DNA of 64,000 bases from an uncultured Candidatus Poseidoniales archaeon (GTDB lineage: Archaea; Thermoplasmatota; Poseidoniia; Poseidoniales; Thalassarchaeaceae), in the NCBI GenBank assembly GCA_964585295.1, contig CAZPCY010000004.1, forward strand, positions 1,674 to 65,673, given 5' to 3'. A program made the position numbers and the translations under genes. The notes beneath the pieces are model-generated. The model ran no database searches, was not told where the DNA came from, and was given only the letters and a program-made list of their open reading frames with translations. This document shows, one piece after another, positions 50,103 to 63,932 of this stretch; positions within the stretch are counted from its first letter, which is position 1, and every line of letters begins with the position of its first letter.

Positions 50103-50225
50103 GCCGACCATTTCCTTTCCTAGGGGCCCGGCCGATGTGGGAGAGGAGGAATTCCAAGGTGGCCTCATTCCAAACTCGATAGAGAACGGCATCTTGAGCC
50201 CATCAGCAGCCCTATGCGAAGGTGG

Positions 50226-50309
50226 TGCGGGGAGAGGGATTCGAACCCTCGAACGCTGTTTGCGCCCGGAGCTTAAATCCGGTGCCTTTGACCGCTCGGC
50301 AATCCCCGC
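50226..50309 (-). tRNA. tRNA-Leu (anticodon UAA), type II with a long variable arm.
   Basis: The reverse complement reads GCGGGGA-TT-GCCGAGCGGTCAAAGGC-A-CCGGA-TTTAAGC-TCCGG-(variable arm GCGCAAACAGCGTTC)-GAGGGTTCGAATCCCTC-TCCCCGC-A. The genomically encoded CCA is at 50223-50225. It has the classic Leu/Ser D-arm, a 7-bp acceptor stem and a T-loop of TTCGAAT. Confidence 0.8.
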
Positions 50310-50332
50310 GAGCCGCCATCGTGCGCCGGGCA

Positions 50333-50340
50333 ATGAATAC
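50333..50340 (-). promoter_or_regulatory. Candidate archaeal TATA box (TATTCATT) for tRNA-Leu.
   Basis: This AT-rich octamer is centred about 27 nt upstream of the tRNA 5' end on the minus strand, in otherwise GC-rich sequence. Confidence 0.3.
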
Positions 50341-50409
50341 TGCCCCGAGCGCGGCTTCACTTGCTCACGATTCACAAACGGTAAAACGAGGTTGTCGTCA
50401 CCCACTACC

Positions 50410-53400
50410 GTGCTATCCCCTCAAGTCGGCGGCGGACGGGCGTCCTATGGACGCCATTGGGCGGCTCTGTTCGTCCTCACCATGCTGCTTGCTTCGTGGT
50501 CCGGAGCCTCTGGCCAGATGTCTCCAATGGAGGGGCATCAAGGATCTCTCGATGCTGATTCTACCCGACTGAGCACCTCGTCGCAGTCCTTCCACGACTA
50601 CACGCTCTTCTTAGCCAGATCAAATGGCTCGGCTGGAGGTGATGGTTTCATCACCACCAAGGTGCCCTCCAGTGGCGGCCAAGAAGAGGAACAGGCGGGA
50701 GACACGGATGTGATATTCCGATCACCTGCGATGCTCGAGGATCTGACGATCAAAGGACGCGCGAAGCATGGTTCTTCATCGACCTACTACCTTCCGAGTA
50801 CGTTGTTCATCAAGGCAACCGGTCCAACCAATGCGACTGCCGATTGGAAGATTACCCTGCTGAATGACGGCGACATCGTCGCCGAGGACGATTGGAACAC
50901 TGTCGTCTGTACACCAACCTTCCTCGAACCTTGCGGCTTCGACGAACGTTCGTTTAAGTTGGAGTGGAATGGCCCGGGAGCTAACGGCGACCGGTTCAAT
51001 GTCAGCAAAGGAAACCAGTTGGTTTTGGAGGTCCGTGCCGACCTCGATTGTTCTTCAAACCAACCAGGAGGGCCGTCCGATGCTAGTGGGACAGAGGGGC
51101 GGCAATTCGGTCAACCCGAGTGCGCGGCTTGGATTGCGTACAATGAGATCGATGGAGCAAGCGACCGTTATTCGTTCATCGATGTAGAATCGAATGCTCT
51201 CAAGGAGAGCCTCATTCTTGTGCAGAGATCCGGAGCGGGACCTGGGGAGGATGTCCCCATCACCGAGTGGTTCCCCAATGATGTCCTCTCAGCAAGGACG
51301 ATGCAGTTCCGTTTCCACGTAACCTCATCGTTCGGTAGATTCGATGTCGACACGGTGAAACTGACTGTGATCTCTCCGTCTGGAAGCAAGGACGTCGATC
51401 AGGAGATTGACGGACAGTTGGATGGGGTGGAGGACAATCATTGGGGCATAATCGGTACACATCAGTGGACATACCCGGGGGGTGTCGAATCGGGTGAATA
51501 CGTGGTCCGGTTGGAGGTCACCGATATCCAGGGCAACGTGATCGTGATTGACCATCCGAATCTCCAGATGAGGAGATTCGGTGTCGCTCTCCGTCATGGT
51601 GATGATCGGAGCGTCGAGTATGTCGCTCCTGATCAGCAGACTTCGATTCCGTTGCAACTGCAACACCGAGGCTCAGTTTCCGAATCGGTTGAGGTCGAAT
51701 TGAGGTTGTTGACCTCTCTTGGAAGCGCTTGGTTCAATGAGTTCGATCGAGATGATGGTTACACCTTGGAACGAGGTGGCGCAGTGATGAACCCGATTCT
51801 CACTCTCAGGGCTCCAAGTGACCTCACTGGTTCACCCAACGCAATAGAGATCAAGGCGACCGCTACCGCCATGATTGAGAACATCCCGACCGTTGTCCAT
51901 GAGGATGTCCTCTATCTATCGTTAGAGAAGATCGATGTCTATGCACCCCCAATGGTCAGCATCTGGAACGGCAATCACAGTGAGCAGTACGCGAACAGCA
52001 GCCGCCCGGACGCTTTCGATACCAGCATCCCGAGATACGTGGAGGATGGCGAATTCACAACCTTCCTAATCGAGATCTTCAACACCGGATTCGACAGTGA
52101 CACATTCCGGATAGATGTCCTTGAGAGATCGAAGGCAATCGTGCAGTTGTACGACAACGACACCAACCAGAGAATCCTCGAAGATGAGGGGGACGGGACT
52201 TTCCATACCGCGGAGTTGTCCCGACATACCACAGATGTCTTCAGGTTGCAGATCAAGCCCTCTGCCAATCGAGAGGATGGCGATACCGGTGTCGTACGGC
52301 TTCAAGTCATGAGCAGTGGCAACGGTAGCCACGCCAGCACCACGGAATTCACAGTGCAGCGAACCTTCGGTGTGCGTGCAGTCGTAGTACATGACTGCGA
52401 CGGCGTCCCTCTTGGGTCCGTAAGTGAGGCTGCCTGCATCGTGGATGCAGATGATTCGATTGGGATGCGAATCAAGGTCACGAACAGCGCCACTGCGGGG
52501 ACCGCTTCGACTTGGTGGCGCTTAATCAATCCAGCCGACTTGCCTGAGAATGCAGCCACCGACCCCGCTCTAGTCCAATGGGAATACCGTATAACCGATG
52601 CAGATGGCGATGGGATCGGCCGAGTCTCACTCGCCCCCCAGGAATCGACTGAGGTGATGCTGGACATCTCGCCGAAGCAGGAGATAGAGGTGGGTAATCA
52701 CACCATCCTCCTTAGAATTGAAGAGGACACCACAGACGAAGACAAGGCATACTTCGACCTACCAATCATCGTACAAGTGTCGGCCGATGATCCATCCTTG
52801 CGTGTGGTCCAGGTGTCGAGATCCGAGTCACTCCGGCCCGGTGAGACTCGGGAGGTACAGATGAAGGTGCACAATGATGGCAACTCCCCCTTGCTGGTCC
52901 TCCTCACCGCAACGGTCGAACAGTCAAACTGGGATGCTGATGTGATTGGACCCTCAGGCTCTCCTCTGATTGAGATCGGGCCGTTTGAGGAGGCGGCCTT
53001 CACCCTCCGAATAACCGCGCCAGCGGATGCCAATTCCGGCACCGAGGTTCCAGTGCGCATTGAAGCCGAGCCCTACGGTACCAACACTTCGTTTGAGGAG
53101 GATGATACCGCGATCTTAGATGTCAGTGTGAAGATCGAGATTACCGGCATATCGGAGCGACTGATGAATGAGGTCAAGCATCCGAGGGTGACCACGGTCC
53201 TGTTCGGCATTGGAGCCCTCCTGTTGCTTGTGGCCGCCATGCAGAATCGGGTCAATCGCCGCCGTTGGGCAGAGCACACGGCGGCTCAGGAAGAGTGGTA
53301 CGAGGATGAGGAAATCGAGGAATTCAAGGTTCGGGACGACCCACTGCCTGATCCTATCGGAGAAGAGGATACGGACGATGACGACATTGAGTTAATCGAA

Positions 53401-53424
53401 CTGGTCGACGAAGACACTGATTAG
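50410..53424 (+). CDS. Large secreted surface protein (about 1000 aa). It has CARDB/NEW3-like beta-sandwich repeats, a C-terminal TM anchor and an acidic cytoplasmic tail.
   Basis: The proposed GTG start at 50410 gives a signal peptide: basic residues, then AALFVLTMLLASWSGASG, then Q. It carries many N-x-S/T sequons. CARDB-like segments include ESTEVMLDISPKQEIEVGNHTILLRIEED and GETREVQMKVHNDGNSPLLVLLTA. The TM helix is VTTVLFGIGALLLLVAAM, followed by RRRW and an Asp/Glu-rich tail. The ORF-track start at 50035 runs through the tRNA gene and was rejected. Confidence 0.5.
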   Translation: MLSPQVGGGRASYGRHWAALFVLTMLLASWSGASGQMSPMEGHQGSLDADSTRLSTSSQSFHDYTLFLARSNGSAGGDGFITTKVPSSGGQEEEQAGDTDVIFRSPAMLEDLTIKGRAKHGSSSTYYLPSTLFIKATGPTNATADWKITLLNDGDIVAEDDWNTVVCTPTFLEPCGFDERSFKLEWNGPGANGDRFNVSKGNQLVLEVRADLDCSSNQPGGPSDASGTEGRQFGQPECAAWIAYNEIDGASDRYSFIDVESNALKESLILVQRSGAGPGEDVPITEWFPNDVLSARTMQFRFHVTSSFGRFDVDTVKLTVISPSGSKDVDQEIDGQLDGVEDNHWGIIGTHQWTYPGGVESGEYVVRLEVTDIQGNVIVIDHPNLQMRRFGVALRHGDDRSVEYVAPDQQTSIPLQLQHRGSVSESVEVELRLLTSLGSAWFNEFDRDDGYTLERGGAVMNPILTLRAPSDLTGSPNAIEIKATATAMIENIPTVVHEDVLYLSLEKIDVYAPPMVSIWNGNHSEQYANSSRPDAFDTSIPRYVEDGEFTTFLIEIFNTGFDSDTFRIDVLERSKAIVQLYDNDTNQRILEDEGDGTFHTAELSRHTTDVFRLQIKPSANREDGDTGVVRLQVMSSGNGSHASTTEFTVQRTFGVRAVVVHDCDGVPLGSVSEAACIVDADDSIGMRIKVTNSATAGTASTWWRLINPADLPENAATDPALVQWEYRITDADGDGIGRVSLAPQESTEVMLDISPKQEIEVGNHTILLRIEEDTTDEDKAYFDLPIIVQVSADDPSLRVVQVSRSESLRPGETREVQMKVHNDGNSPLLVLLTATVEQSNWDADVIGPSGSPLIEIGPFEEAAFTLRITAPADANSGTEVPVRIEAEPYGTNTSFEEDDTAILDVSVKIEITGISERLMNEVKHPRVTTVLFGIGALLLLVAAMQNRVNRRRWAEHTAAQEEWYEDEEIEEFKVRDDPLPDPIGEEDTDDDDIELIELVDEDTD

Positions 53425-54347
53425 AAGTCGTCCCACGCCATTCCAGACCTCAGCTTGGGTCCTGTGTCGCCCCTAGCGGCCTCCCTACTTGCCATTCTTC
53501 TCAGATCGGCATTTTCCTCTTCCTTGAACAATCCCCGCAAAGTGTTCCAAGAAATCGTCAAGGCGAACCAGCCAATCACGATGGTCGGGAACCATAGGAT
53601 CACCCAATCTGGTACCTCCACATCGGCTGCCGGTTCGTCCGAATCATCACCGGCCTCGAGATCGATTCGATCTTCTAGCCCCTCGAGGAAGGCGGTTTGA
53701 TTGGTCATCACTATGACCGCCCAAGCCAAGACTAGGAGCGCACCAATCAGATACTTACCCCTTCTAATCCACTTCGGGTCCGGATAGGGAGAATCCACCC
53801 ATATCAGCTCGATCTCACGGATTTTCTCTGATTTCTTGTGCAGCTTCAGTACGGTTCTGCGTCGCACATTGCTTAGCATCCTAGCCTCATCTCCGGCGGA
53901 CCAGAGGAAGACATCGAATCGCTTGTTTCGGTGGTTGGTACCGACCGCGACCATGCGAGGTTGCTCTGCGATCATGGGCTTGCCTCCTAGGAATCCCCAC
54001 TTGTGGATTCTAACTATGGCCCCGTGTTCATTCAGAGCAACCCTACTAGAACGTCTGCTATACTTCCAGGCAGCGGCCCACATCAAAGGACCGGCAGCAA
54101 TGTACTGGCCAGCCTCAACCTCTTCGGAGAAGCCGAATATGTAGGCTTGGATGCCGGCGACAACCAGCATGATTCCAACAGGGAATCCAAGCAGTGCCAA
54201 GCGAGCCTCAAGGACCGTGCTTCCAATCCGCTTGGCTCCTTTCCTCTGCTGCTTGGAGGCAACACGCACTCCTACTCCCAAATCGTGGTTCAACTTCAAT
54301 CCTGTGCTGTATCGCAGCCCTATGAAAGCGCCTCCTATGGCCATCAA
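53421..54347 (-). CDS. Hypothetical membrane protein with a PH-like (bPH/DUF304-type) segment.
   Basis: It has two N-terminal TM helices. A soluble domain (VALNEHGAIVRIHKWGFLGGKPMIAEQPRMVAVG...FDVFLWS) is followed by two more TM helices and an acidic C-terminus. Confidence 0.35.
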   Translation of the reverse strand: MMAIGGAFIGLRYSTGLKLNHDLGVGVRVASKQQRKGAKRIGSTVLEARLALLGFPVGIMLVVAGIQAYIFGFSEEVEAGQYIAAGPLMWAAAWKYSRRSSRVALNEHGAIVRIHKWGFLGGKPMIAEQPRMVAVGTNHRNKRFDVFLWSAGDEARMLSNVRRRTVLKLHKKSEKIREIELIWVDSPYPDPKWIRRGKYLIGALLVLAWAVIVMTNQTAFLEGLEDRIDLEAGDDSDEPAADVEVPDWVILWFPTIVIGWFALTISWNTLRGLFKEEENADLRRMASREAARGDTGPKLRSGMAWDDF

Positions 54348-54367: not shown

Positions 54368-57300
54368 TTGCAATCACCATCCCGGCTCACTTTCCCGCGC
54401 GTGAGGGCGCGCGCATGTCCGAACATCGCTCCATTCTCCTTAAGGTGCGGATTGACCGCCTCGCGGTTGATTCACATGTCGCAGACATGCACGGCCTCCT
54501 GGTCCGCCGACCCACTCCGACCGCACCGCCAGAGTTCAATCACACTGGCCCTGCTGCTGCTGCTGTCTTCTCTGGCCGGCTTGCAATATGCATCTTGGAA
54601 GGCTCTCGCTAGCACTGATCAGGATGGTGACGGACTAAGTTATGGATTGGAATTCCTACTGAACACCCAGCCTCAGGACTGGGATAGCGACAACGACGAA
54701 CTTCCTGATGGGTGGGAGTGGCTCCATGGTCTCGATCCACTGGATGGGTCGACGCTCACGAGCAACGGCGCTCAGGGTGACCCCGACGGGGACGGACTGT
54801 CGAACAAGGATGAGTACCAATACGCCATGCCGAACAATTGGGACTCTACCTCGACGCCCAACGAACTCGACAACGGAGTATGGTGGAATGGCACGGTCCC
54901 GACCCGTAACTGGGATGAGGAGAGTGCAATGCAGGCGAGCCAGGGCACAGGAACCGATGGCAGTGACGAGGATCCGATGGGGAACATCTGCGCAGATGGC
55001 ATGGACAACGACCGCGATGGCGCCGTCGATGCAGCGGATTCGGATGGTGATGGCGACGCGGATTGCTCCAGTGACGACGATGATGGAGATGGTTTGATCG
55101 ACGAGGACCCGGATGGTTACGATACGGACAACGATGGCATGAACGATGGCTGGGAGGTCGCGAACAATCTCGACCCTCGATCCCCCTCAAATCAGGATGG
55201 AGCCTCGGGTGATCCGGACGGCGATGGATTGGTGAATCTCTTCGAATACGTCAATCCGAGTTGGACCACACAGAACCAAGGCGTACCCTACTACATGCCC
55301 GGCCACCCATCTCAGCAGCGGACCGAGACCGAATCACCCTGCAACCCAGTCCTAGGCCTAGGCCCTGGCGGTTGCCAGTCTCTGACCGCCGAGGTGGATG
55401 GTGTCACATCGACGAATCCGCAGAGTGCCGACACCGATGGAGACGGATTGAACGACAGCTATGAGGCACTGACTCTCCGGACCGATCCCACCGCCTCTGA
55501 CACGGACAGCGATGGCGTCTCTGACGGCGTCGAGGTGAACGGTGCCTATGGCAATCCTCCGCAGGCGAGTGACCCTAGGGACAACAACACCGATGACGAT
55601 CCATTCGACGACGGCGATGAGGACATCGACGGCGATGGCGTTGTCGATGCAAACGAGACGGATCCCACTAGAAGAGAGGATTCTGGAGACTATGATGGTG
55701 ACGGCATAGAGAATTGGGAGGAGAACCTGACTTGCACGCTCTGGAATATCGCCGACACCGACTACGGTGGAGTAAGTGATGGTCTGGAGCGCCAGAACCT
55801 CCATCAGACCGACCCCTGTCTCTCGACAGTGGACTTTTCTACCAACCACATCTCATATTCCTCACTCAGTCAAACCCTACTGGTCCAGAACGTGACTGGC
55901 TTCGGCGTAGGATGGAATGATTGGAGGCCCACCGCACCTCCGAGACAAGGATTTTACAACCTATCGAACGGATCCCTAATCCCCTTCACATACTCGTATA
56001 CCGAGATTGTTGGAAGTGAGCATAGAATTGTCGGAGTGACGGTACCCCCTCCAGGTTCCACCACCGAGGTTCTCTCCAAGAACGGCTCATGGTGCTGGAA
56101 TGCGAACATCCTCGCTGCGAACAACGTCGCTTGGTGCGATGACGACTACTACGACCACGACTTGGATGGCCTTGCCGATTGGGAGGAGCAGGCAGGAACC
56201 TGGGGTTTCACCAGTGATCCTTTCCTTTGGGATACTGATGGCGACACCGTCAACGATCTTGATGAGATTATGAATGGCACCGATCCAAACGAGCCATGTG
56301 ACAACAATCGCGACAGCGATGGCGACGGATTGAACGATTATTTCGAGAACAACACTGGCTGCCCGATGATCTATGTTCCTGGTATGGGTGGCAATGGCTC
56401 GTTAGACACCTATGTTACGGATTATCTGACGCAGGACACGGACAATGGTGGGGTGGCGGACGGTCAGGAATATCTGGATGGGACCAATCCGCAGAACGAT
56501 GCGAGCGACGATCAGAATCCGGCCGACACAGACGGAGACGGGATCCCGGATGCCGTCGAAAACAACACAGGTACGGACTGGCGTAATCCCGATACCGATG
56601 GCGGTGGGATGACTGATTACGAGGAGTGCCCGCCACAGTTCTGGATGTTCAACTGCCAAGGGAGCGGTCAGGATCCGTGGGATCCGACCGATGACATCAG
56701 GCCAACCGACATCGTGTTCTGGGCCAATAACACGACGAACGGCACGGATCCCTTCCAGTCACACTTTTGGCGTCAATACACATATGATGAATACACTGGA
56801 GTCGCCTTCGGCGTAAACCAGTCTTTGGTTACTTGGAACGAGATGTCCTCTGGATTCACTGACACGCAGTGGTTGGCAGATCCATCCTTCCACAATGTAA
56901 CGAACACCTGGCAGTTGACCTTCAATCAGACAGTGAACCCTAGTTCGAATCTTCCGAATCCCTACGCAGCAACTCAATTCATGATGTGGGCAGATCCATC
57001 TGCCGGGTTGAACCATTCCAATTGGACTCATGACATCAGGGTTTCCGATGTGCCAATAGATACCGCGATGATTGATTCACCTGGAATTTTCTTCCCAGAT
57101 CAGGTAAGGCAGAATTCGACCGCATTTCAGGGATCCTCATATTCAACTGAAGTGCCGTCATCCTTCTACGACCCCAACAACCCCGAATCGTACGCGCTCA
57201 ATGTGACGGATGCGATAATCTCCGAGGCTGGAGCGATTAGCGCTTGGGAAAAGATGGAAGCACTCGTCACTTGGATAAGGGAGGGCAACAACACCACCGA

Positions 57301-60300
57301 GCCTAAACTGAACCACGATGGTAGCGTGATGCCGGTCGGACTCGACCTGACGACGTTCATGCTGCACGACTCGCTTGAGGGTACTTGCAACGAATGGTCC
57401 ATCACGCTAACCATGATGGCTCGGCTCGCTGGTCTGCCAGCTAGACAGGTCTCAGGTTACTCCAGTGGGGCCTGGCACGGCACTGGATTCCAGGTGCTCG
57501 GATTGCACCATCAGACATGGACCGAAGTACATCTGCAGACCAATCCAGCGCAGGGCAACCGAGACATGGGTTGGGTCCCCTTCGATTCCTGTCCTCCTGC
57601 AGAGGAAGTGGACATCATCGACTCTGTATGGGGCCCGGACATAATCGATCGGAACATGTCAGGAGACCAAATATTCCTCAATGGCACCTTAATCTTCACT
57701 GAGAACCAGAGCGTCGCCGTCGGAGTCGTGCTGCAACTGTATCTAGTACCTCCTGAAGAGGCGGCGAACATCCCTGGTCTGGCCGCCACCGGAGGTCGGC
57801 TGGTGGGGACCGGTATCTCAGCGAGCAATGGGACCTTCTCGCTGAAGGGATTCGCCAATGAGCCGATACGAACCGGATTCGGACGCCTCGTGGTCCAGAC
57901 CGTAGCTAGCGGCTATGTCGGGCAAGGGGGTATCGCAAATACCAGTTGGTTGGTCAATGTGACAGACGATACAAACCTGACCATCGAGGCACCGATGCCG
58001 GTCGCGGCACCAATCATCGGCGCAGGGGCAAACACCACGCTGAGCGGCCGTCTTCGATTGGAGATGCTGCCTTGGATAGACATGCCGACCTTCGACACCC
58101 ACACGGTATTCCTGAACTTCACCTCGAACATCAGCGGACCCATATCCATCCAAACTGTGGTCCAGCCCACTGGTTCCTTCGAGTTCTACCTTAGCCTCGA
58201 TGAGAACGAGACCCAAGGACTCAGGCCTGCGACCATCGAATTCCCCGGCTGGCATGAGAGCGATCTCAACAATGCTTCTACCCCAATCTACCACGCTCGT
58301 CCGTCGAATCTCTCATTCGAACTCAATGTAACGGCCGCTCCGGACTTGACCGTCACCGTGGAAGGGAATGGTGCGAACTCATCCCTACTATCAGTCGATG
58401 AACCAATCCATCTGAATGGAACCGTCCTTTCCAGAGGGCATAATCCGGTACCTGTTTCAGGAACCTTGACCTTGCAGATGCGAGAGAACGGCACAGGTCT
58501 TGGATTCGTGAACATCACCACATTCACGCTTGGCCCCGGAAATTGGACCGGCAATCCAGGGAACTTCTCCATCAATTGGGTGATGGCGGCCAACCAGACC
58601 CCGATTCCACCCGGTTTCATCGATCTCCGTGTTGTGTTCGAGGCTGCGAACATTCCCGCGACCGACGAGGAGAACCTGATTGGCTATGGAATCCGAAGCA
58701 TCGTCATGTTCGAGTACTCACTCAGTCCGGTGTTGCGAGGTCAGGGTACCACGGTGTTCGTCAGTATGCTCGATCACACTGGCAGCCAGACGACATCATT
58801 CAACGGAACATATGTCGTCGAGGTGGATGGAACGATGGTGAATACCACTGTTGATCCAGTCGAGGAGTTCTTCGACGTATCTTGGATACCTGATGCCAAC
58901 ACCGCGGCAGGCGACTACTCCTGGTGGATTAACTACAGTGGTTCGCAGTGGTACAAGCCCAACTCTTCCAACAGCAGTCTGAGAATTCAGGGTTTGGCGG
59001 ACATATCTATCATCATCGCTCAGGATTGGACTCACATAGGTCAACAGACGTATGCGACCGGTGACATCCGGGATTCAGTACTGGGCACCATCATCCTGCT
59101 CAACGAGAGTCAGGTCACCTTGCAAGTCGAGCGGCCGGGGAGTGGTCCGAGTGGACCAGGGGGGGAACCACCTCCTCCAGAGATTACCATGCTCGGTCAA
59201 GGATGGGTGGATTCCCTGAATGGGACCTACAACATCTCCTATACGATTCCCAGCCATATCGGTTCAGGCGTCTACAATCTCACCGTGTCCTGCGATTTCC
59301 AACTAGTAGCACCGACAGGTGGGCCGTACTATGAGATGAATGAATTGGGGTTCACCGATGTTGGCATACAGAGCGAGGCGAAGCTAATCAGTGAGATATC
59401 CTCCACTGTCGTCGTGGTCGGTAATCAACTACTTGTCAATGTCAGTGCCCAAGATGTCGCTGACTCATCTAACTTGACCAACGCAGCATTGGAGTTGGTC
59501 TGGGATTGGGATGGTCCTGACAACGGGACGCTATCCACAGCGAATGTCGGAGTAGACGGCTGGGCAAGATTCTCTCCGACAATCGACATAGATGTCGAAC
59601 CTGGTTGGTACGATGTACGGATATTCATGGCAGATGATGTGTCGGATACGCTGTCGACGCCGAATGCAGGACGTTGGCTGGGCAACGAAACATTCGTCAA
59701 TGTGACCGTCCAAGTCCCGAGTAACATTTCTCTTGATCCGATGCCCACGTTCGTGACTGCTGGCACCTCGTTCATGCTCACCGGTCAGGTTCTAGATGAT
59801 GTGAACAACAGCCGTCCATTCAACGGAACTGTCGAGGTGACTGTGTTCTTCCTGAATGACAGCAGCGAGGTGCTGATAGATTCCTTCACCACGACTCCGA
59901 ATGGATCGTTTAACATCAGCGTCCCGACCGATCCGAATGGCGATGGTGTGACCAGCGGCGACAAGACTGTCGTGGTAAGCGTGCTGAACGACACCAATCC
60001 ATTCTATCTGACCAGTACTGGGACTGGGATGATTCTCGTGAAGGGGGTGACGGAATTCACCGATGTGAGCCCGCTGATTCCGATTATAGTCGAGCGCGGA
60101 GGCAATGTCACCTTTGGTGGCATGTTGCGAGAGGCCAGCGATGGCGACCGACTGCTGTCGAACATGACCATCGCGGGATTGTTCCACGACACTTGGATGA
60201 ATGAGTCCATGACGAACTCGACCGGCGATGTTGACTTCTCATTCTCCATTCCGAACAGCCATCCGCTAGGTCAGGTCGAACTTACCCTGTTCTTCAACGG

Positions 60301-63300
60301 CACCTATCCGTTGCATTCCACCAATCGAACCTTCAGTACCGTGACCGTACGATCTTTGACGGTATTGGTCATCAATCCTATCAGCGACAATCCGGTCGCG
60401 GGTGGATGGCTGAACGTCACGGGGACTCTATTGAGTGATAATGGATCAGGTATCATAGATCGCAACGGCAATGCTCTCTTGCCTTCGCTGACCTTCCGAA
60501 TTGATGGATTCGAAGACACCTTCACAGCTCAGAACGGCACCGTTCTAGCTGATGGATCGTGGAGAGCGAATCTAATCCTAGATCATGATTTCCCGCGCGG
60601 CACCCATAATCTAACCGCGATTTACACCCCAACGGTCAACGATTACGCGACAGCGAACAACATCACGACATTCGACAGTAGAGGATACTCCGTGCTGACA
60701 TTCACGAATCCGCTCGACCTCGACCCGGATCGTAGGACAATCCGTGGCGAAAACATCACGATCGATGTTCTTCTGGTAGACAATTCCGGTGCGCCGATAG
60801 AGAACGCTTCGATCATTCCCACCATAATCGGACATACGGTCTCTGACATGATGACGGATGCGAACGGCACGGCGACACTCACCTTCACGGTCGATCAGAT
60901 GCAGGCACCCGGAGCTCTCTCGATTGACATATCCTTCGCGGGCATTCCGGGAACTACCGGTGTACAGGGGGATGCGACGTTCACTCGCGTCGTAATCCTC
61001 GCGCCCACCAACCTGATTATCGACACCATAGAGGGTGATCTGATTGCTGGCCAGACGGTGATTGTGAATGGTACCCTGCTCGATGAGCATGGCCAGCCAC
61101 TGCTAAACGAGACCGGATTAGCGGCTGGTGGAATAATCCATCTCGCCATCGATGGTCAGGATACGGGAAGTGTGACCATCGCCATGTCGAATGCGACGAC
61201 AGGGTCCTTCTCCATGGTCCACACGCTGCCATTCGACACCACGCCTGGTCCACACATCGCTACGGTGACCTTCCTAGGCGGTTTCATTTGGGTCGATCCG
61301 ATGGGTTCCGGCGATTCTCTGAATCCCGAGTACTATCTCGGCTCAGTCTCGAATGCGACATTCAACGTCTCCGTACCAACTTCGATAGAGATAACTAGCG
61401 ATGCTGGCGAGGTCGAACGCAACGATTTGTTCCGAGTCGATGGGATACTGTTGGACATTGTAGACCGTCCGCTGGACAATGCAACACTCTCCGTGACCAT
61501 GAATGGAGTGTACCTCACCGATGTGAAGACCGATGAATTCGGCATCTTCTCAGTCTATTATCCGGTTCCAGCAAACATGTCTCTAGGTCCGCAACTGGTG
61601 GAAATCAGCTTCGCAGGAGACGAGTTCCATCTGTCGAGCCTCGGTCAGACTACATTCGATGTGTATGCCCCCACCATCCTGACGATTGATGTTCCGCAAG
61701 TGGCAGCCGTTGGCGACTTGGTCACCTTCCAGGGAACCGTTCGGGACAACCTTCCAATGGGATGGTTGGCCAATCACACCGTAGAGATTCGCGTCAATGA
61801 GACATTGCTGGATACGGTAGTCACGGATTCCAATGGCAGTTGGTCGTATGAATGGACGATTCCACAATGGCTCGACATCTCCAACCACACAGTGGAGGTA
61901 TTCGCTCCGGCTACCACAGATGGTTGGTACCGAGAAGGCCGAGCCAACGATACGATTCGCGTCGTCCACAACGCTGGATTGGACCTCGATGCCGATGGAG
62001 GAGGCCACTCCACCCGTGGTGGTGATTGGAATATTTCCGGAAGGTTGTACGATGCCGATGTCGTGGGAACTCCACCCTTGGTCGGCAGAACTGTGACGAT
62101 TACTGTTGATGGAAACACCGGTGTCACCGTAACCACAGATGACGAAGGTCGCTTCCAAGTGCTCTTGCCGGTCGACTCTTCCGCCTCACGCGGGAGTCAT
62201 CTCATAGAAGCGGCATACGCTGGCGAGGAGGATTGGGTCGCCGCTTCCGCTTCCGTCACTGTGTATGCGTGGGCTGATGTCGCTCTGGAGGTCCTAGATA
62301 TCGCCTCGCCGGTGATTAGGAGCGACTCCGCCCACCCGATTGAGATTACTGGCCGAATCGTCGAAGTCGGTGGATCTGGCAATGTGCTCGCCAACCTCAA
62401 TCTCCAAGTGTCTTGGGAGGGCGAGGAGAAGGTGTTCGCGACTGATTGGGACAATGCCACCGGTCACTGGACCATCCGCTTCACAGCGAACGCTCCCATG
62501 GCAGAGGATGAAACCATTCTAATCACAGTCGAAGAGAATCCGTCTTCGTACCTGCATTCTGCATCAGACGGCGCCAAGGTCTTCGTCATGGTTCCAGCCG
62601 CATTCTCTTTCGATCCTCTGCATATCGATCTTGACTCACGGATCATCGAGAGCATTGTCAGGGTGACTTCGGCCGACACTGGCGAGCCGCTGGAAAATGT
62701 CTCGATTGAGGCACGCTTGATGAACGAGACAACCTCGATTGCTCAGTATGGTAGAATGACGGGAGATGACGGCGTTTTCACCTATTCCTTCGCCGCCGTC
62801 GAGCCACTTCCTCCCTTCTCAGACCAAGCAGCATGGGGGCGGTTGTCGATAGCGTTCAACTCGACCTCACCGCTACTCGCCGCTGATGACCGTGCACGGT
62901 TGGAGACGTCACCACCGGTGATTGCCACCTATGAGGTCGCCGAGAATGTGGCGAGTGGCCCCTCCACCCCCGCGATGGCTGGAGGCCTACTCCTTCTGGC
63001 CGGATTGGCTGCTGCACTTCTGCACATGCGCAAGCGCCGCACTGCGGTCGAGGCACTCGACGATACATTCGCTTACTCGGCCGAGTTGCTGATGGCAATG
63101 GATGAGATACGTGAAGCGATTTTCCAATGCTATGAGAGCCTATGTGTGACCTTGATGGAACACGGTTTCCTAAGGCGTGATTTCGAGACGGTTCGAGAAT
63201 TCGAACTTGCAATCCGTGAGGCTCTTCCGATTAGAGAGCAAGCACTCGTCGCTCTGGACCGGGTGTTCGAAGAGGCACGTTACTCCAGTCACGAACTCGG

Positions 63301-63397
63301 CGACCAACACAGAAATGCTGCGCAGCAGGCAATCGAAGGGGTGAGATCCGAGATTGCCTCTCTTGAGGCACAGGGACAATCCATACCTCAGCGATGA
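54368..63397 (+). CDS. Giant (3009 aa) surface protein. It combines a signal peptide, thrombospondin-type-3-like Ca-binding repeats, a transglutaminase-like Cys-His-Asp core, long arrays of Ig-like repeats, a TM helix and a DUF4129-like cytoplasmic domain.
   Basis: The signal is LTLALLLLLSSLAGLQYA. There are at least 15 D-x-D-x-D-G-x-x-D-x-x-[DE] repeats, for example DQDGDGLSYGLE, GDPDGDGLSNKDEY and DTDSDGVSDGVE. The transglutaminase-like core is GTCNEWSITLTMMARLAGLPARQVSGY ... HQTWTEVHL ... GWVPFDSC. N-x-S/T sequons are extremely dense throughout. The C-terminal TM helix is GGLLLLAGLAAALLHMRKRR. The tail contains FLRRDFETVREFELAIREAL, resembling the DUF4129 'ETPREY' motif that typically follows transglutaminase-like membrane proteins. 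Confidence 0.7.
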   Translation: MQSPSRLTFPRVRARACPNIAPFSLRCGLTASRLIHMSQTCTASWSADPLRPHRQSSITLALLLLLSSLAGLQYASWKALASTDQDGDGLSYGLEFLLNTQPQDWDSDNDELPDGWEWLHGLDPLDGSTLTSNGAQGDPDGDGLSNKDEYQYAMPNNWDSTSTPNELDNGVWWNGTVPTRNWDEESAMQASQGTGTDGSDEDPMGNICADGMDNDRDGAVDAADSDGDGDADCSSDDDDGDGLIDEDPDGYDTDNDGMNDGWEVANNLDPRSPSNQDGASGDPDGDGLVNLFEYVNPSWTTQNQGVPYYMPGHPSQQRTETESPCNPVLGLGPGGCQSLTAEVDGVTSTNPQSADTDGDGLNDSYEALTLRTDPTASDTDSDGVSDGVEVNGAYGNPPQASDPRDNNTDDDPFDDGDEDIDGDGVVDANETDPTRREDSGDYDGDGIENWEENLTCTLWNIADTDYGGVSDGLERQNLHQTDPCLSTVDFSTNHISYSSLSQTLLVQNVTGFGVGWNDWRPTAPPRQGFYNLSNGSLIPFTYSYTEIVGSEHRIVGVTVPPPGSTTEVLSKNGSWCWNANILAANNVAWCDDDYYDHDLDGLADWEEQAGTWGFTSDPFLWDTDGDTVNDLDEIMNGTDPNEPCDNNRDSDGDGLNDYFENNTGCPMIYVPGMGGNGSLDTYVTDYLTQDTDNGGVADGQEYLDGTNPQNDASDDQNPADTDGDGIPDAVENNTGTDWRNPDTDGGGMTDYEECPPQFWMFNCQGSGQDPWDPTDDIRPTDIVFWANNTTNGTDPFQSHFWRQYTYDEYTGVAFGVNQSLVTWNEMSSGFTDTQWLADPSFHNVTNTWQLTFNQTVNPSSNLPNPYAATQFMMWADPSAGLNHSNWTHDIRVSDVPIDTAMIDSPGIFFPDQVRQNSTAFQGSSYSTEVPSSFYDPNNPESYALNVTDAIISEAGAISAWEKMEALVTWIREGNNTTEPKLNHDGSVMPVGLDLTTFMLHDSLEGTCNEWSITLTMMARLAGLPARQVSGYSSGAWHGTGFQVLGLHHQTWTEVHLQTNPAQGNRDMGWVPFDSCPPAEEVDIIDSVWGPDIIDRNMSGDQIFLNGTLIFTENQSVAVGVVLQLYLVPPEEAANIPGLAATGGRLVGTGISASNGTFSLKGFANEPIRTGFGRLVVQTVASGYVGQGGIANTSWLVNVTDDTNLTIEAPMPVAAPIIGAGANTTLSGRLRLEMLPWIDMPTFDTHTVFLNFTSNISGPISIQTVVQPTGSFEFYLSLDENETQGLRPATIEFPGWHESDLNNASTPIYHARPSNLSFELNVTAAPDLTVTVEGNGANSSLLSVDEPIHLNGTVLSRGHNPVPVSGTLTLQMRENGTGLGFVNITTFTLGPGNWTGNPGNFSINWVMAANQTPIPPGFIDLRVVFEAANIPATDEENLIGYGIRSIVMFEYSLSPVLRGQGTTVFVSMLDHTGSQTTSFNGTYVVEVDGTMVNTTVDPVEEFFDVSWIPDANTAAGDYSWWINYSGSQWYKPNSSNSSLRIQGLADISIIIAQDWTHIGQQTYATGDIRDSVLGTIILLNESQVTLQVERPGSGPSGPGGEPPPPEITMLGQGWVDSLNGTYNISYTIPSHIGSGVYNLTVSCDFQLVAPTGGPYYEMNELGFTDVGIQSEAKLISEISSTVVVVGNQLLVNVSAQDVADSSNLTNAALELVWDWDGPDNGTLSTANVGVDGWARFSPTIDIDVEPGWYDVRIFMADDVSDTLSTPNAGRWLGNETFVNVTVQVPSNISLDPMPTFVTAGTSFMLTGQVLDDVNNSRPFNGTVEVTVFFLNDSSEVLIDSFTTTPNGSFNISVPTDPNGDGVTSGDKTVVVSVLNDTNPFYLTSTGTGMILVKGVTEFTDVSPLIPIIVERGGNVTFGGMLREASDGDRLLSNMTIAGLFHDTWMNESMTNSTGDVDFSFSIPNSHPLGQVELTLFFNGTYPLHSTNRTFSTVTVRSLTVLVINPISDNPVAGGWLNVTGTLLSDNGSGIIDRNGNALLPSLTFRIDGFEDTFTAQNGTVLADGSWRANLILDHDFPRGTHNLTAIYTPTVNDYATANNITTFDSRGYSVLTFTNPLDLDPDRRTIRGENITIDVLLVDNSGAPIENASIIPTIIGHTVSDMMTDANGTATLTFTVDQMQAPGALSIDISFAGIPGTTGVQGDATFTRVVILAPTNLIIDTIEGDLIAGQTVIVNGTLLDEHGQPLLNETGLAAGGIIHLAIDGQDTGSVTIAMSNATTGSFSMVHTLPFDTTPGPHIATVTFLGGFIWVDPMGSGDSLNPEYYLGSVSNATFNVSVPTSIEITSDAGEVERNDLFRVDGILLDIVDRPLDNATLSVTMNGVYLTDVKTDEFGIFSVYYPVPANMSLGPQLVEISFAGDEFHLSSLGQTTFDVYAPTILTIDVPQVAAVGDLVTFQGTVRDNLPMGWLANHTVEIRVNETLLDTVVTDSNGSWSYEWTIPQWLDISNHTVEVFAPATTDGWYREGRANDTIRVVHNAGLDLDADGGGHSTRGGDWNISGRLYDADVVGTPPLVGRTVTITVDGNTGVTVTTDDEGRFQVLLPVDSSASRGSHLIEAAYAGEEDWVAASASVTVYAWADVALEVLDIASPVIRSDSAHPIEITGRIVEVGGSGNVLANLNLQVSWEGEEKVFATDWDNATGHWTIRFTANAPMAEDETILITVEENPSSYLHSASDGAKVFVMVPAAFSFDPLHIDLDSRIIESIVRVTSADTGEPLENVSIEARLMNETTSIAQYGRMTGDDGVFTYSFAAVEPLPPFSDQAAWGRLSIAFNSTSPLLAADDRARLETSPPVIATYEVAENVASGPSTPAMAGGLLLLAGLAAALLHMRKRRTAVEALDDTFAYSAELLMAMDEIREAIFQCYESLCVTLMEHGFLRRDFETVREFELAIREALPIREQALVALDRVFEEARYSSHELGDQHRNAAQQAIEGVRSEIASLEAQGQSIPQR

Positions 63398-63410: not shown

Positions 63411-63932
63411 CTATCCTATTCGGATGTTCAGGTTTCCATCCTCAACCCATGCGGCTTCGATTGGTCTCCCTCCGCCGATTCGAGCCACCCTCTCGAAGCG
63501 TGAACCGACACCATCGATTGCCAATCGCATGACCGTCTCACCGCTGATTATTCCGACGTTTATGGAGATTCCATCCTTCGACACTCCGGATAACGGGATG
63601 CGCAAAGTCCCATCTGAACTAACACCTTCCAGATGGGCTGCCATCACCTCCATGGTCGGTATCGATGCAATCCATTCTCTAGTCGCTTCGACCATACCTG
63701 CCGTTTGACCCAGCATCGAGATGTGAGCATCTCTGACCTCTACCAGTGCTGAGTTATCGGAGAGATTCGAAATGAATCGGGCATGTTCGATCTCCGCCGT
63801 CGCCTCTAGACCGATCGATCTCCCGTCGATGGTCGAGCCTTGTTCGCCTCCATCTCCATCTTCAGGATTGGATGTTGGCAAGCCTATCGGATCGGAGTCG
63901 TGGACCGGAATCGGGCGCCAACCTGCATCCAT
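63411..63932 (-). CDS. Hypothetical protein (173 aa).
   Basis: This ORF is convergent with the giant gene. It has an acidic N-terminus. No family could be assigned. Confidence 0.3.
   Translation of the reverse strand: MDAGWRPIPVHDSDPIGLPTSNPEDGDGGEQGSTIDGRSIGLEATAEIEHARFISNLSDNSALVEVRDAHISMLGQTAGMVEATREWIASIPTMEVMAAHLEGVSSDGTLRIPLSGVSKDGISINVGIISGETVMRLAIDGVGSRFERVARIGGGRPIEAAWVEDGNLNIRIG

What the first reader, a model, noticed from the sequence alone, without database searches (positions are those of the whole stretch)
54368..63397. A 3009-aa archaeal surface protein fuses TSP3 Ca-binding repeats, a transglutaminase core and a DUF4129-like tail.
A single ORF of more than 9 kb encodes the following, in order:
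- A signal peptide.
- About 15 aspartate-box repeats of thrombospondin type 3 / bacterial Ca-binding type (roughly 54600-56640).
- A transglutaminase-like papain-fold core with a recognisable Cys (GTCNEWS), His (HQTWTEVH) and Asp (VPFDSC) triad (roughly 57370-57600).
- About 1800 aa of repetitive beta-rich, Ig-like modules saturated with N-x-S/T sequons.
- One TM helix (62956-63040).
- A ~115 aa cytoplasmic domain whose FLRRDFETVREF motif matches the DUF4129 signature.

In bacteria, DUF4129 follows the membrane anchor of transglutaminase-like proteins, which in those proteins face the cytoplasm. Here the transglutaminase core sits in a huge extracellular, glycosylated, Ca-binding adhesin-like ectodomain. 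That points to an extracellular cross-linking or protease activity coupled to trans-membrane signalling or scaffolding.

I do not know of a described archaeal protein with this architecture. It would be a candidate cell-cell or cell-surface interaction factor.
Basis: partly seen in the sequence, partly recalled or inferred. Interest (0 to 1): 0.7.

Follow-up and report, generated by a model that had tools for sequence, protein, structure and literature searches.

The report
Giant TgpA-like surface glycoprotein of MGII archaea
The 9-kb gene is real and encodes a huge membrane-anchored, sugar-coated surface protein found in essentially all Marine Group II archaea. Its "transglutaminase" part has lost the catalytic histidine, so it is more likely a structural or binding envelope component than an extracellular enzyme.

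Summary
The ORF is real and uninterrupted. The probable start is ATG 54476, giving 2973 aa. The same protein occurs at 100% identity on two independent assemblies.
- bacterial-type TSP3 Asp-box repeats
- a Transglut_core domain
- about 17 Ig-like repeats with 98 N-glycosylation sequons against 33 expected
- one C-terminal TM helix
- a DUF4129 tail

Two claims fail.
- **Catalytic triad.** Cys971 is invariant in 119 orthologues. The canonical His position is Gln here and Thr/Ser/Ala/Asp/Gly/Asn/Arg in all the others. The module has no conserved His anywhere. A clade-specific invariant Cys1039 appears instead, as the seventh conserved Cys pair of the ectodomain.
- **Contrast with bacteria.** The closest solved structure is the periplasmic domain of P. 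aeruginosa TgpA. Short TgpA relatives carry the same outside-TGase, TM, inside-DUF4129 layout.

The protein is not unique. It belongs to an order-wide family of fixed length (2983 ± 12 aa) in Poseidoniales, at a conserved locus, always paired with an upstream ~960-1095-aa surface protein. Databases label it "transglutaminase domain-containing protein", and I found no paper describing it.

Best reading: a non-catalytic, TgpA-derived envelope or adhesion glycoprotein.

The parts
54476..63397 (+). Coding sequence of the giant protein (2973 aa plus stop). The maximal ORF starts at TTG 54368, but ATG 54476 matches the database protein.
54476..54610 (+). N-terminal basic region, a hydrophobic segment of about 15-19 residues and a conserved A-L-A-S motif (residues 1-45). 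This is a probable Sec signal peptide, and an uncleaved anchor is not excluded.
   Evidence: Inferred from sequence features; no signal-peptide predictor was available.
54611..55825 (+). TSP3-like Ca-binding repeat region A (residues 46-450). It is the most conserved extracellular part, at 72% identity between MGIIb and MGIIa, and holds three conserved Cys pairs.
55826..56125 (+). Poorly conserved insert between the two TSP3 blocks (residues 451-550).
56126..56710 (+). TSP3-like repeat region B (residues 551-745).
56711..57655 (+). TgpA-like extracytoplasmic module: an N-terminal beta domain plus the transglutaminase-fold core (residues 746-1060). Cys971 is at nt 57386-57388. The canonical His position is Gln1013 at nt 57512-57514. 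Asp1037 is at nt 57584-57586 and Cys1039 at nt 57590-57592.
   Evidence: Pfam; profile against PDB; AF2 pLDDT 88.5; Foldseek to 6G49; column counts
57656..62965 (+). Stalk of about 16-17 diverged Ig-like repeats of roughly 105 aa (residues 1061-2830). It carries 72 sequons and no conserved Cys, and aligns almost without indels across the order.
62972..63028 (+). Single transmembrane helix (residues 2833-2851).
63029..63394 (+). Cytoplasmic tail (residues 2852-2973). The DUF4129 Pfam match covers nt 63128-63337. The tail is predicted as a helical bundle continuous with the TM helix, and its core motif FLRRDFETVREFE..AIR..LP is nearly invariant.
50527..53424 (+). Conserved upstream partner gene on the same strand. 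It encodes a surface protein of about 960-1095 aa with Ig-like domains, a C-terminal TM helix and an acidic tail. The start is uncertain, but it must lie downstream of the tRNA at 50223-50309.

Best explanation
This is the Marine Group II (Poseidoniales) version of a TgpA-family membrane protein, rebuilt as a constitutive cell-envelope glycoprotein.

**Layout**
- A C-terminal TM helix anchors it.
- A highly conserved DUF4129 helical bundle sits in the cytoplasm.
- Outside, a fixed-length stalk of about 17 heavily N-glycosylated Ig-like domains holds a head away from the membrane.
- The head consists of a TgpA-like transglutaminase-fold module capped by disulfide-stapled TSP3 repeats, which are of the Ca2+-binding type.

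**Proposed mechanism**
- The transglutaminase-fold module is no longer a Cys-His-Asp enzyme.
- Its old nucleophile, Cys971, is probably tied up in a disulfide with the clade-specific Cys1039.
- The module then serves as a structural or binding unit.
- The working end is the Ca-loaded TSP3 head. It would contact a conserved partner, such as copies of itself, the co-encoded upstream surface protein, or a common ligand.

**Status of each step**
- Shown: domain identities, loss of the His, the conservation pattern and the synteny.
- Inferred: topology, the disulfide, Ca2+ binding and the envelope or spacer role.
For: **Family and fold**
- Transglut_core and DUF4129 score above their Pfam cut-offs.
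- The whole 746-1060 module matches the periplasmic domain of TgpA. hmmsearch gives E 3.6e-9. Foldseek gives E 7e-13 over 313 columns, using an AF2 model with pLDDT 88.5.
- Short relatives have the TgpA_N + Transglut_core + DUF4129 architecture.

**Loss of the catalytic His**
- The canonical position, two residues before the invariant Trp1015, is T70/S22/A8/D8/G4/N4/R2/Q1 in 119 orthologues, and never His.
- No His is invariant or nearly invariant in the module.
- Among 247 core matches in the 150 nearest representatives, 161 have Cys+His. The 12 with Cys, no His and Cys1039 appear, among the rows inspected, to be this giant clade and fragments of it.

**Cysteine pattern**
- The ectodomain has exactly 14 conserved Cys, in 7 sequential pairs. 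The 1770-aa stalk has none.
- Pair 718/727 is missing together in the same number of sequences, 6.

**Housekeeping character**
- The tail motif occurs in 462 stretches of species-representative genomes, and the top 80 are all MGII apart from one bacterial-labelled contig.
- The locus is the same in 5 of 5 genomes examined, always with the upstream surface protein.
- Length is 2945-3017 aa with an SD of 11.6.

**Where the constraint lies**
- Between MGIIb and MGIIa, identity is 72% and 61% for the two TSP3 regions and 60% for the tail. It is 38% for the TGase module and 35% for the stalk.
- For comparison, neighbouring E1 dehydrogenase subunits are 75-79% identical and the XPD helicase 43%.

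**Topology**
- There are 98 sequons, all before the TM helix, and none in the tail.
Against: - There is no direct evidence of expression, glycosylation, Ca2+ binding, lattice formation or binding partners.
- The invariance of Cys971, Asp957, Glu1017, Arg983 and Arg990 could also reflect a residual non-canonical activity.
- 34 of 119 orthologues, including this one, have a His two residues upstream of the canonical position, at the site where TgpA has Asp.
- A membrane anchor, Ig-like stalk and distal head is also the classic build of fibrillar adhesins. A purely adhesive role is therefore not separable from an envelope role with these data.
- The TSP3_bac score for this protein is just under Pfam's cut-off.
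Confidence: 0.45

Rival explanations
1. It is a fibrillar adhesin. The Ig-like stalk presents the TSP3 and TGase-fold head to bind particles, phytoplankton surfaces or other cells, mediating attachment or aggregation of MGII cells.
For: - The build is anchor, long Ig-like stalk, then distal head.
- The TSP3 region resembles that of the Myxococcus CglD and MtsD adhesion and cohesion proteins.
- The MGII literature already invokes 'thrombospondin genes' for adhesion and aggregation (PMC6461757; PMC8821943).
- Methanogen adhesin-like proteins include a transglutaminase-type group (PMC11532034).
Against: - From general knowledge, adhesins usually vary in repeat number and have fast-evolving tips. 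They are also often strain-specific.
- Here the length is fixed (SD 11.6 aa).
- The tip is the most conserved extracellular part, at 72% across families.
- The gene sits in a conserved housekeeping neighbourhood in every genome examined.
Confidence: 0.3
2. An active extracellular transglutaminase or cysteine protease cross-links or cleaves surface or environmental proteins, and is coupled to signalling through the DUF4129 tail.
For: - Transglut_core scores above its cut-off and has the correct fold.
- The nucleophile Cys971 is invariant, and an acidic or amide residue sits at the third triad position.
- The periplasmic domain of TgpA has transglutaminase activity in vitro (PMC3507681).
Against: - The canonical His is absent in 119 of 119 orthologues, and no conserved His substitutes for it.
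- The TGase module is among the least conserved parts of the protein, at 38%.
- A clade-specific invariant Cys1039 suggests that the nucleophile is disulfide-bonded.
- Inactive transglutaminase-fold domains with structural roles are well documented, for example Cyk3p (PMC3386208) and EPB42 and Rad4 (PMC10318531).
Confidence: 0.1
3. It is a two-end-anchored transmembrane coupling device. The N-terminal hydrophobic segment is not cleaved, so the ectodomain forms a loop as in TgpA. Extracellular Ca2+ or ligand binding is then relayed to a cytoplasmic partner of DUF4129.
For: - TgpA-type relatives have membrane segments on both sides of the TGase module.
- The tail core motif FLRRDFETVREFE is almost invariant.
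- The TM helix is predicted to continue directly into the cytoplasmic bundle.
Against: - The N-terminal segment looks like a normal signal peptide with a conserved A-x-A-type site.
- No conserved cytoplasmic partner gene lies in the neighbourhood, and no MoxR, DUF58 or VWA gene lies within 6-10 kb in 5 loci.
- The tail fold matches only generic helical bundles, with the best E at 0.08.
Confidence: 0.1

Closest known systems
TgpA (PA2873) of Pseudomonas aeruginosa and the TgpA family (TgpA_N + Transglut_core + DUF4129; PDB 6G49)
   Same: - The whole extracytoplasmic module (beta domain plus transglutaminase core) is homologous. It is the best sequence and fold match in the PDB.
- The order is the same: outside module, TM helix, cytoplasmic DUF4129.
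   Different: - There is no multi-helix TgpA_N domain. A single signal-like segment and about 700 aa of TSP3 repeats take its place.
- About 1770 aa of Ig-like repeats are inserted between the module and the TM helix.
- The catalytic His is lost and a new Cys lies two residues after the Asp position.
- The size is 2973 aa rather than about 670-740 aa.
Transglutaminase-type adhesin-like proteins of Methanobrevibacter and Methanosphaera (PMC11532034)
   Same: Both are archaeal surface proteins that combine Ig-like ('archaeal big') domains, a membrane anchor and a transglutaminase-like domain.
   Different: - The methanogen proteins are short and N-terminally anchored.
- They carry the TGase domain at the C-terminus next to pseudomurein-binding repeats.
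- They have no TSP3 head and no DUF4129 tail.
Bacterial TSP3-repeat surface proteins (Pfam PF18884; Myxococcus CglD and MtsD)
   Same: Both have strings of Asp-box Ca-binding-type repeats, DxDxDGxxDxxE.
   Different: - Only the repeat region matches. The scores of 72.8 and 30.8 bits are far below the equivalog cut-offs of 400 and 800.
- The remaining architectures are unrelated.
Catalytically inactive transglutaminase-fold proteins (fission yeast Cyk3p, erythrocyte band 4.2/EPB42, Rad4/XPC)
   Same: The transglutaminase or papain-like fold is kept without a complete triad and is used for binding or scaffolding.
   Different: - Per the cited review, EPB42 and the papain-like domain of Rad4 are catalytically inactive. 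My recollection, not checked here, is that such proteins usually lose the Cys.
- Here the Cys is invariant and the His is the residue lost.
- The known inactive examples are eukaryotic and intracellular.
Stalked archaeal envelope proteins such as Staphylothermus tetrabrachion, and giant haloarchaeal surface proteins such as halomucin (recalled from memory, not tested here)
   Same: These are very large, glycosylated, membrane-anchored surface proteins that set the architecture of the envelope.
   Different: There is no sequence relationship. Tetrabrachion uses a coiled-coil stalk. Nothing is known about the supramolecular arrangement of the MGII protein.

Membership tests
Transglutaminase-like superfamily (Pfam PF01841 Transglut_core) | Profile match above the curated cut-off | tested here: met
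   41.0 bits against a cut-off of 23, covering residues ~925-1037. All listed orthologues carry PF01841.
Transglutaminase-like superfamily (Pfam PF01841 Transglut_core) | Papain-like transglutaminase fold with the Cys at the N-terminus of a helix | tested here: met
   The AF2 model has pLDDT 88.5, and Cys971 sits at the start of a helix (model residues 232-245). Foldseek hits 6G49, 3ISR, TG2 and factor XIII.
Transglutaminase-like superfamily (Pfam PF01841 Transglut_core) | Catalytic Cys | tested here: met
   Cys971 is present in 119 of 119 orthologues.
Transglutaminase-like superfamily (Pfam PF01841 Transglut_core) | Catalytic His, two residues before the conserved Trp ('HaWvE') | tested here: not met
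   The position is Gln1013 here and T/S/A/D/G/N/R in the other 118 orthologues, and never His. It aligns with the His of the 'DAHAW' motif of TgpA. No His is conserved anywhere in the module.
Transglutaminase-like superfamily (Pfam PF01841 Transglut_core) | Catalytic Asp after 'GW.p.' | tested here: inconclusive
   The residue is Asp1037 here. Across the family it is E63, D34, Q10, N8, K2, H1, Y1.
TgpA family | N-terminal multi-helix membrane domain TgpA_N (PF11992) | tested here: not met
   Pfam gives no hit at E<=1. There is only one N-terminal hydrophobic segment.
TgpA family | Extracytoplasmic module homologous to the TgpA periplasmic domain over its whole length | tested here: met
   Foldseek aligns 313 columns to the 288-residue 6G49 chain, with TM 0.61 normalised to the target and E 7e-13. 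TgpA-type proteins match profile positions ~10-328.
TgpA family | TM helix followed by a C-terminal DUF4129 domain | tested here: met
   DUF4129 scores 31.2 bits against a cut-off of 24.8, directly after the TM helix. P0210, P0216 and P0250 have the same arrangement.
TgpA family | Neighbourhood with MoxR-type ATPase and DUF58 genes. This is my recollection for bacterial tgpA loci and is not a formal defining feature. | tested here: not met
   No AAA_3, DUF58 or VWA families appear among the called genes within 6-10 kb in 5 loci.
Bacterial TSP3 repeat (PF18884) | Profile match above the cut-off | tested here: inconclusive
   The score is 23.8 bits against a cut-off of 25, with 5 stretches. Many orthologues have PF18884 on record.
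Bacterial TSP3 repeat (PF18884) | Tandem Asp-box motifs, DxDxDGxxDxxE | tested here: met
   14 strict motifs against 0.11 expected from shuffles, with a maximum of 3.
   It is not among the Pfam hits at E<=1. No thrombospondin chain was found in the PDB at E<=0.01.
DUF4129 (PF13559) | Profile match above the cut-off, at the C-terminus of a transglutaminase-core protein | tested here: met
   31.2 bits against a cut-off of 24.8, covering profile positions 1-69 of 69.
Fibrillar adhesins (stalk of repeated domains, adhesive tip and anchor) | Repeated Ig-like stalk plus a cell anchor | tested here: met
Fibrillar adhesins (stalk of repeated domains, adhesive tip and anchor) | Demonstrated or recognised adhesive domain, and ligand binding | not testable with these tools
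   This needs binding assays.
Archaeal S-layer or envelope glycoproteins | Secreted, N-glycosylation-rich and C-terminally membrane-anchored | tested here: met
   There are 98 sequons against 33 expected, a C-terminal TM helix and a signal-like N-terminus. These are sequence features only.
Archaeal S-layer or envelope glycoproteins | High abundance and a regular lattice on the cell | not testable with these tools
   This needs proteomics and cryo-ET of MGII cells.

The most novel reading that the evidence does not exclude
An entire order of abundant, uncultured marine archaea depends on one fixed-length 'ruler' glycoprotein derived from TgpA. In this reading, the former active-site Cys has been converted into a Cys971-Cys1039 disulfide. 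That disulfide could be structural, or a redox- or Ca2+-sensitive switch. Alternatively, the Cys could still work as a nucleophile without His. Together with the co-encoded ~1000-aa surface protein, the giant protein would form the otherwise unknown MGII cell envelope, coupled to the cytoplasm through the near-invariant DUF4129 bundle.
Probability: 0.15. Interest if true: 0.7.

Novelty: new variant of a known kind. Interest (0 to 1): 0.42.

Why it matters
- **Open question.** Marine Group II archaea are among the most abundant archaea in surface oceans, have no cultured members, and to my knowledge have no described cell envelope. A universal, single-locus, 320-kDa surface glycoprotein is a concrete candidate for a major envelope or attachment component.
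- **Practical use.** The extracellular TSP3 head is about 60-75% identical across the whole order. That makes it a possible handle for antibody-based capture or labelling of MGII cells.
- **Annotation.** The current automatic label, 'transglutaminase / putative cysteine protease', probably over-states an enzymatic role. It should not be counted as protein-degrading capacity in metabolic reconstructions.
- **Evolution.** It shows a TgpA-type protein being rebuilt by replacing the N-terminal membrane domain, inserting a long stalk and losing the catalytic His.

Tried and rejected
- **Thioester or covalent-adhesion idea.** I considered a Cys-Gln thioester as in Gram-positive TED domains or alpha-2-macroglobulins, prompted by faint MG2, MG4 and bMG3 hits in the stalk. 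I rejected it because no Gln is invariant in the module and the residues after Cys971 are D/S/T-E-F, not a CxEQ motif.
- **PNGase-like deglycosylase.** 2F4M appears weakly. This chemistry also needs the His, so I rejected it.
- **Alternative His.** His1019 is H92/R14/Q9/N3/K1. His1011 is D66/H34/N16 and aligns with an Asp of TgpA. His1012 is His in this protein only. None is a conserved replacement.
- **Tail function.** The profile search against PDB sequences gave nothing below E 0.7. The fold search of the tail model gave only generic helical bundles, best E 0.08.
- **Upstream partner and small flanking ORFs.** They gave no informative Pfam, NCBIfam or PDB hits.
- **The two membrane ORFs near the gene.** ORFs 49146-50102 and 53421-54347 are unrelated to each other.
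- **Lysine depletion as a clue to self-protection from cross-linking.** Lys is low throughout this genome, at about 2%, so the 0.5% seen here is only a modest extra depletion.
- **Literature.** Searches combining transglutaminase or DUF4129 with MGII or Poseidoniales found nothing relevant.

Full report
**Is it there?**

A single ORF runs from 54368 to 63397 on the + strand with no stop codon. The first ATG is at 54476. Starting there gives 2973 aa, the length of database protein P0001, which the search lists at 100% identity and 100% coverage. P0001 is encoded on two independent assemblies, an ENA scaffold of 151 kb and a JGI contig of 69 kb. In addition, 118 further full-length orthologues align with it almost without gaps. 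An assembly chimera or an interrupted frame is therefore excluded. All residue numbers below count from Met at 54476.

**Domain content**

| Feature | Result |
|---|---|
| Transglut_core | 41.0 bits, cut-off 23 |
| DUF4129 | 31.2 bits, cut-off 24.8, full profile length |
| Stalk domains | Big_3_5 and CarboxypepD_reg above cut-off; Big_1 and MG4 below |
| TSP3_bac | 23.8 bits, cut-off 25 |
| NCBIfam over the N-terminal region | partial matches to Myxococcus CglD (E 1.4e-20) and MtsD (E 8e-8) |
| Strict Asp-box motifs, residues 102-717 | 14 observed, 0.11 in shuffles |
| Eukaryotic TSP_3 model | no hit |
| Thrombospondin chains in the PDB | none at E<=0.01 |
| Stalk, residues 1061-2830 | profile self-comparison shows diverged repeats of about 105 aa, so roughly 16-17 Ig-like domains |
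| N-x-S/T sequons | 98 observed, 32.9 ± 4.9 in shuffles, all before the TM helix, none in the 122-aa tail |
| Hydrophobic segments | only two: 21-39 at the N-terminus and 2833-2851 |

- The C-terminal helix is followed by RKRR here and by an Arg-rich cluster in the family consensus.
- The N-terminus has a basic stretch, a hydrophobic core and a conserved A-L-A-S motif. That pattern fits a Sec signal peptide (inference, because no predictor was available).

**The catalytic triad does not hold**

I aligned 119 full-length orthologues and examined the relevant columns.
- Cys971 is invariant.
- In transglutaminase-like proteins the catalytic His sits two residues before a conserved Trp, in the motif 'H-a-W-v-E'.
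- A profile of this family aligns Trp1015-x-Glu1017 with the 'DAHAWVE' motif of P. aeruginosa TgpA (PDB 6G49). That puts the TgpA His opposite position 1013. An hmmalign of further relatives gives the same register.
- Position 1013 is Gln in this protein. In the other orthologues it is T70, S22, A8, D8, G4, N4 and R2. It is never His.
Position 1011 is D66/H34/N16 and aligns with an Asp of TgpA. Position 1012 is Phe in most orthologues and His only here.
- No His is invariant or nearly invariant anywhere in residues 740-1110.
- The third triad position, 1037, is E63/D34/Q10/N8.

The AF2 model of residues 740-1110 is confident, with pLDDT 88.5 and pTM 0.86. It puts Cys971 at the N-terminus of a helix and position 1013 in the following strand, as expected for this fold.

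By sequence, the family has the fold and the nucleophile but not the general base.

**What replaced the His**

- Cys1039, two residues after the Asp position, is invariant in the family. Inspected TgpA-type relatives have Thr there, or Ser in one case.
- Among 247 core-domain matches in the 150 nearest representatives of a 1.8-billion-protein library, the combinations were as follows.

| Combination | Count |
|---|---|
| Cys + His, no second Cys | 161 |
| His, no Cys | 50 |
| None of the three | 17 |
| Cys, no His, second Cys | 12 |
| Cys, no His, no second Cys | 4 |
| Other | 3 |

- The members of the group of 12 that I inspected are this giant clade or fragments of it. This is one lineage, so the association is a clade character and not an independent statistic.
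- The ectodomain has exactly 14 conserved Cys, in seven sequential pairs: 172/197, 289/300, 420/448, 540/554, 608/629, 718/727 and 971/1039.
- Pair 718/727 is missing in six sequences at each position, and the 1770-aa stalk has no conserved Cys.
- My inference is that these are seven disulfides and that the former nucleophile is now structural.
- I could not measure the distance, because the tools do not return model coordinates. This is the main gap in the analysis.

**Which family it belongs to**

- The best sequence match in the PDB is the periplasmic domain of TgpA, at E 3.6e-9 with the family profile.
- It is also the best fold match. Foldseek gives E 7e-13 over 313 aligned columns, covering the whole 288-residue target.
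- Milani et al. annotate the TGase domain of TgpA as periplasmic and support this with membrane-shaving peptides and a PhoA fusion. They also found in-vitro transglutaminase activity (PMC3507681).
- In the representative search, proteins of 690-740 aa match the whole module. One of them, P0210, is TgpA_N + Transglut_core + DUF4129.
- An outside TGase module followed by a TM helix and an inside DUF4129 domain is therefore the ordinary TgpA layout.
- Three things are new here. The multi-helix TgpA_N domain is replaced by a signal-like segment and about 700 aa of TSP3 repeats. About 1770 aa of Ig-like stalk are inserted. The His is lost.

**Distribution**

- The homologue search returned more than 100 clusters of 2945-3017 aa at 42-57% identity and 99-100% coverage.
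- Where they carry a name, they are called Thalassarchaeaceae, Poseidoniaceae, MGII/III euryarchaeote or 'transglutaminase domain-containing protein'.
- The mean length is 2983 aa with an SD of 11.6.
- A scan of one genome per GTDB species with two tail motifs found 462 confirmed stretches. The best 80 are all MGII or Poseidoniales, apart from one contig labelled Chloroflexota, which is probably mis-binned.
- The locus is the same in five genomes that span both families and a more distant member, P0131. The gene order is:
  1. 2-oxoacid dehydrogenase genes and lipoyl synthase on the opposite strand
  2. a short-chain dehydrogenase gene
  3. a surface protein of ~960-1095 aa on the same strand
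  4. the giant gene
  5. a small ORF on the opposite strand
  6. an XPD-type helicase gene
- The upstream protein is 31% identical between MGIIb and MGIIa over 932 residues. It has Ig-like domains, a C-terminal TM helix and an acidic tail.
- No MoxR, DUF58 or VWA gene is nearby.

**Where selection acts**

Identity between this protein (MGIIb) and P0109 (MGIIa), with neighbouring genes for scale:

| Region or gene | Identity |
|---|---|
| TSP3 block A | 72% |
| TSP3 block B | 61% |
| Cytoplasmic tail | 60% |
| TgpA-like module | 38% |
| Stalk | 35% |
| Neighbouring E1 dehydrogenase subunits | 75-79% |
| Lipoyl synthase | 65% |
| XPD helicase | 43% |

- The distal Ca-binding-type head and the cytoplasmic tail are under enzyme-like constraint. 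The supposed enzyme domain is not.
- The tail is predicted with pLDDT 89 as a TM helix running straight into a helical bundle. It has no specific structural relative, the best Foldseek E being 0.08.

**Mechanism**

I commit to the following, at moderate confidence of about 0.45.
- This is a constitutive envelope glycoprotein of MGII archaea. It is anchored by its C-terminal helix.
- A fixed-length glycosylated stalk presents a TgpA-derived, non-catalytic module and a disulfide-stapled TSP3 head whose repeats are of the Ca2+-binding type.
- The head engages a conserved partner, which may be itself, the co-encoded surface protein, or a common ligand.
- Universal presence, fixed length and the conserved housekeeping locus argue for a structural or spacer role rather than a variable accessory adhesin.
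- The anchor, stalk and head build and the adhesion-type TSP3 repeats keep a fibrillar-adhesin role alive (0.3). The MGII literature already attributes adhesion or aggregation to unspecified 'thrombospondin genes' (PMC6461757; PMC8821943).
- An active extracellular transglutaminase or protease (0.1) would need a non-canonical mechanism.
- A two-end-anchored signalling device (0.1) is not excluded.

**Novelty and score**

- The family is already in public databases under an automatic name. Its core layout is that of TgpA. Archaeal surface proteins with transglutaminase-like domains are known (PMC11532034).
- I found no paper describing this giant, order-wide, His-less form.
- I rate it a new variant of a known kind, with interest 0.42.

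Noticed in passing
window 50223-50309 (-): A tRNA-Leu (anticodon TAA) lies inside the maximal ORF 50035-53424 of the upstream surface-protein gene. One public gene call (1095 aa, start ~50137) overlaps it. The true start is therefore probably downstream, for example at 50527.
   Followed up: partly
window 53421-54347 (-): A 307/308-aa ORF on the opposite strand has predicted membrane segments and no family match. It sits in a ~1-kb gap between the upstream surface-protein gene and the giant gene. In four other MGII genomes the two genes are only ~70-110 bp apart, so this looks like a lineage-specific insertion or a spurious call.
   Followed up: partly
window 49146-50102 (+): A 318-aa membrane protein has no Pfam or NCBIfam match. 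An ORF of similar size (310 aa) occupies the same position in the closest relative (L006 1861-2793). It is unrelated to the 308-aa ORF.
   Followed up: partly
window 63411-63932 (-): A small ORF (173 aa, no family match) lies directly downstream on the opposite strand. An ORF of 140-173 aa holds this position in all five loci examined. It is 35% identical between MGIIb and MGIIa.
   Followed up: partly
proteins P0128, P0130, P0132, P0134, P0141, P0155: Other giant proteins of 1400-3300 aa in the metagenome library carry 3-7 transglutaminase-like cores each. Some copies lack the Cys: in P0128, none of the six cores that could be scored has it. Their organisms and roles are unknown.
   Followed up: no
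L056 (PBAZ01000027.1): A contig labelled 'Chloroflexota bacterium isolate SP4360' encodes the MGII-type DUF4129 tail at 62% identity. It is probably a mis-binned MGII contig.
   Followed up: no
whole window: Lys is scarce and Arg is preferred in nearly all ORFs of 200 aa or more (about 2% K and 7% R). The giant protein is more extreme, at 0.5% K, and is 2-3 times enriched in Asn and Thr.
   Followed up: yes
window 18421-21810 (+) and 4664-7753 (-): Two further ORFs of more than 1000 aa are in the window. I did not examine them.
   Followed up: no
L063/L067 (isolate ARS96), L054/L081 (UBA106), L010/L084 (ERR599032_concoct_73): Three species-representative MAGs show the tail motif on two different contigs. 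This could mean real paralogues or strain mixtures within the bins.
   Followed up: no
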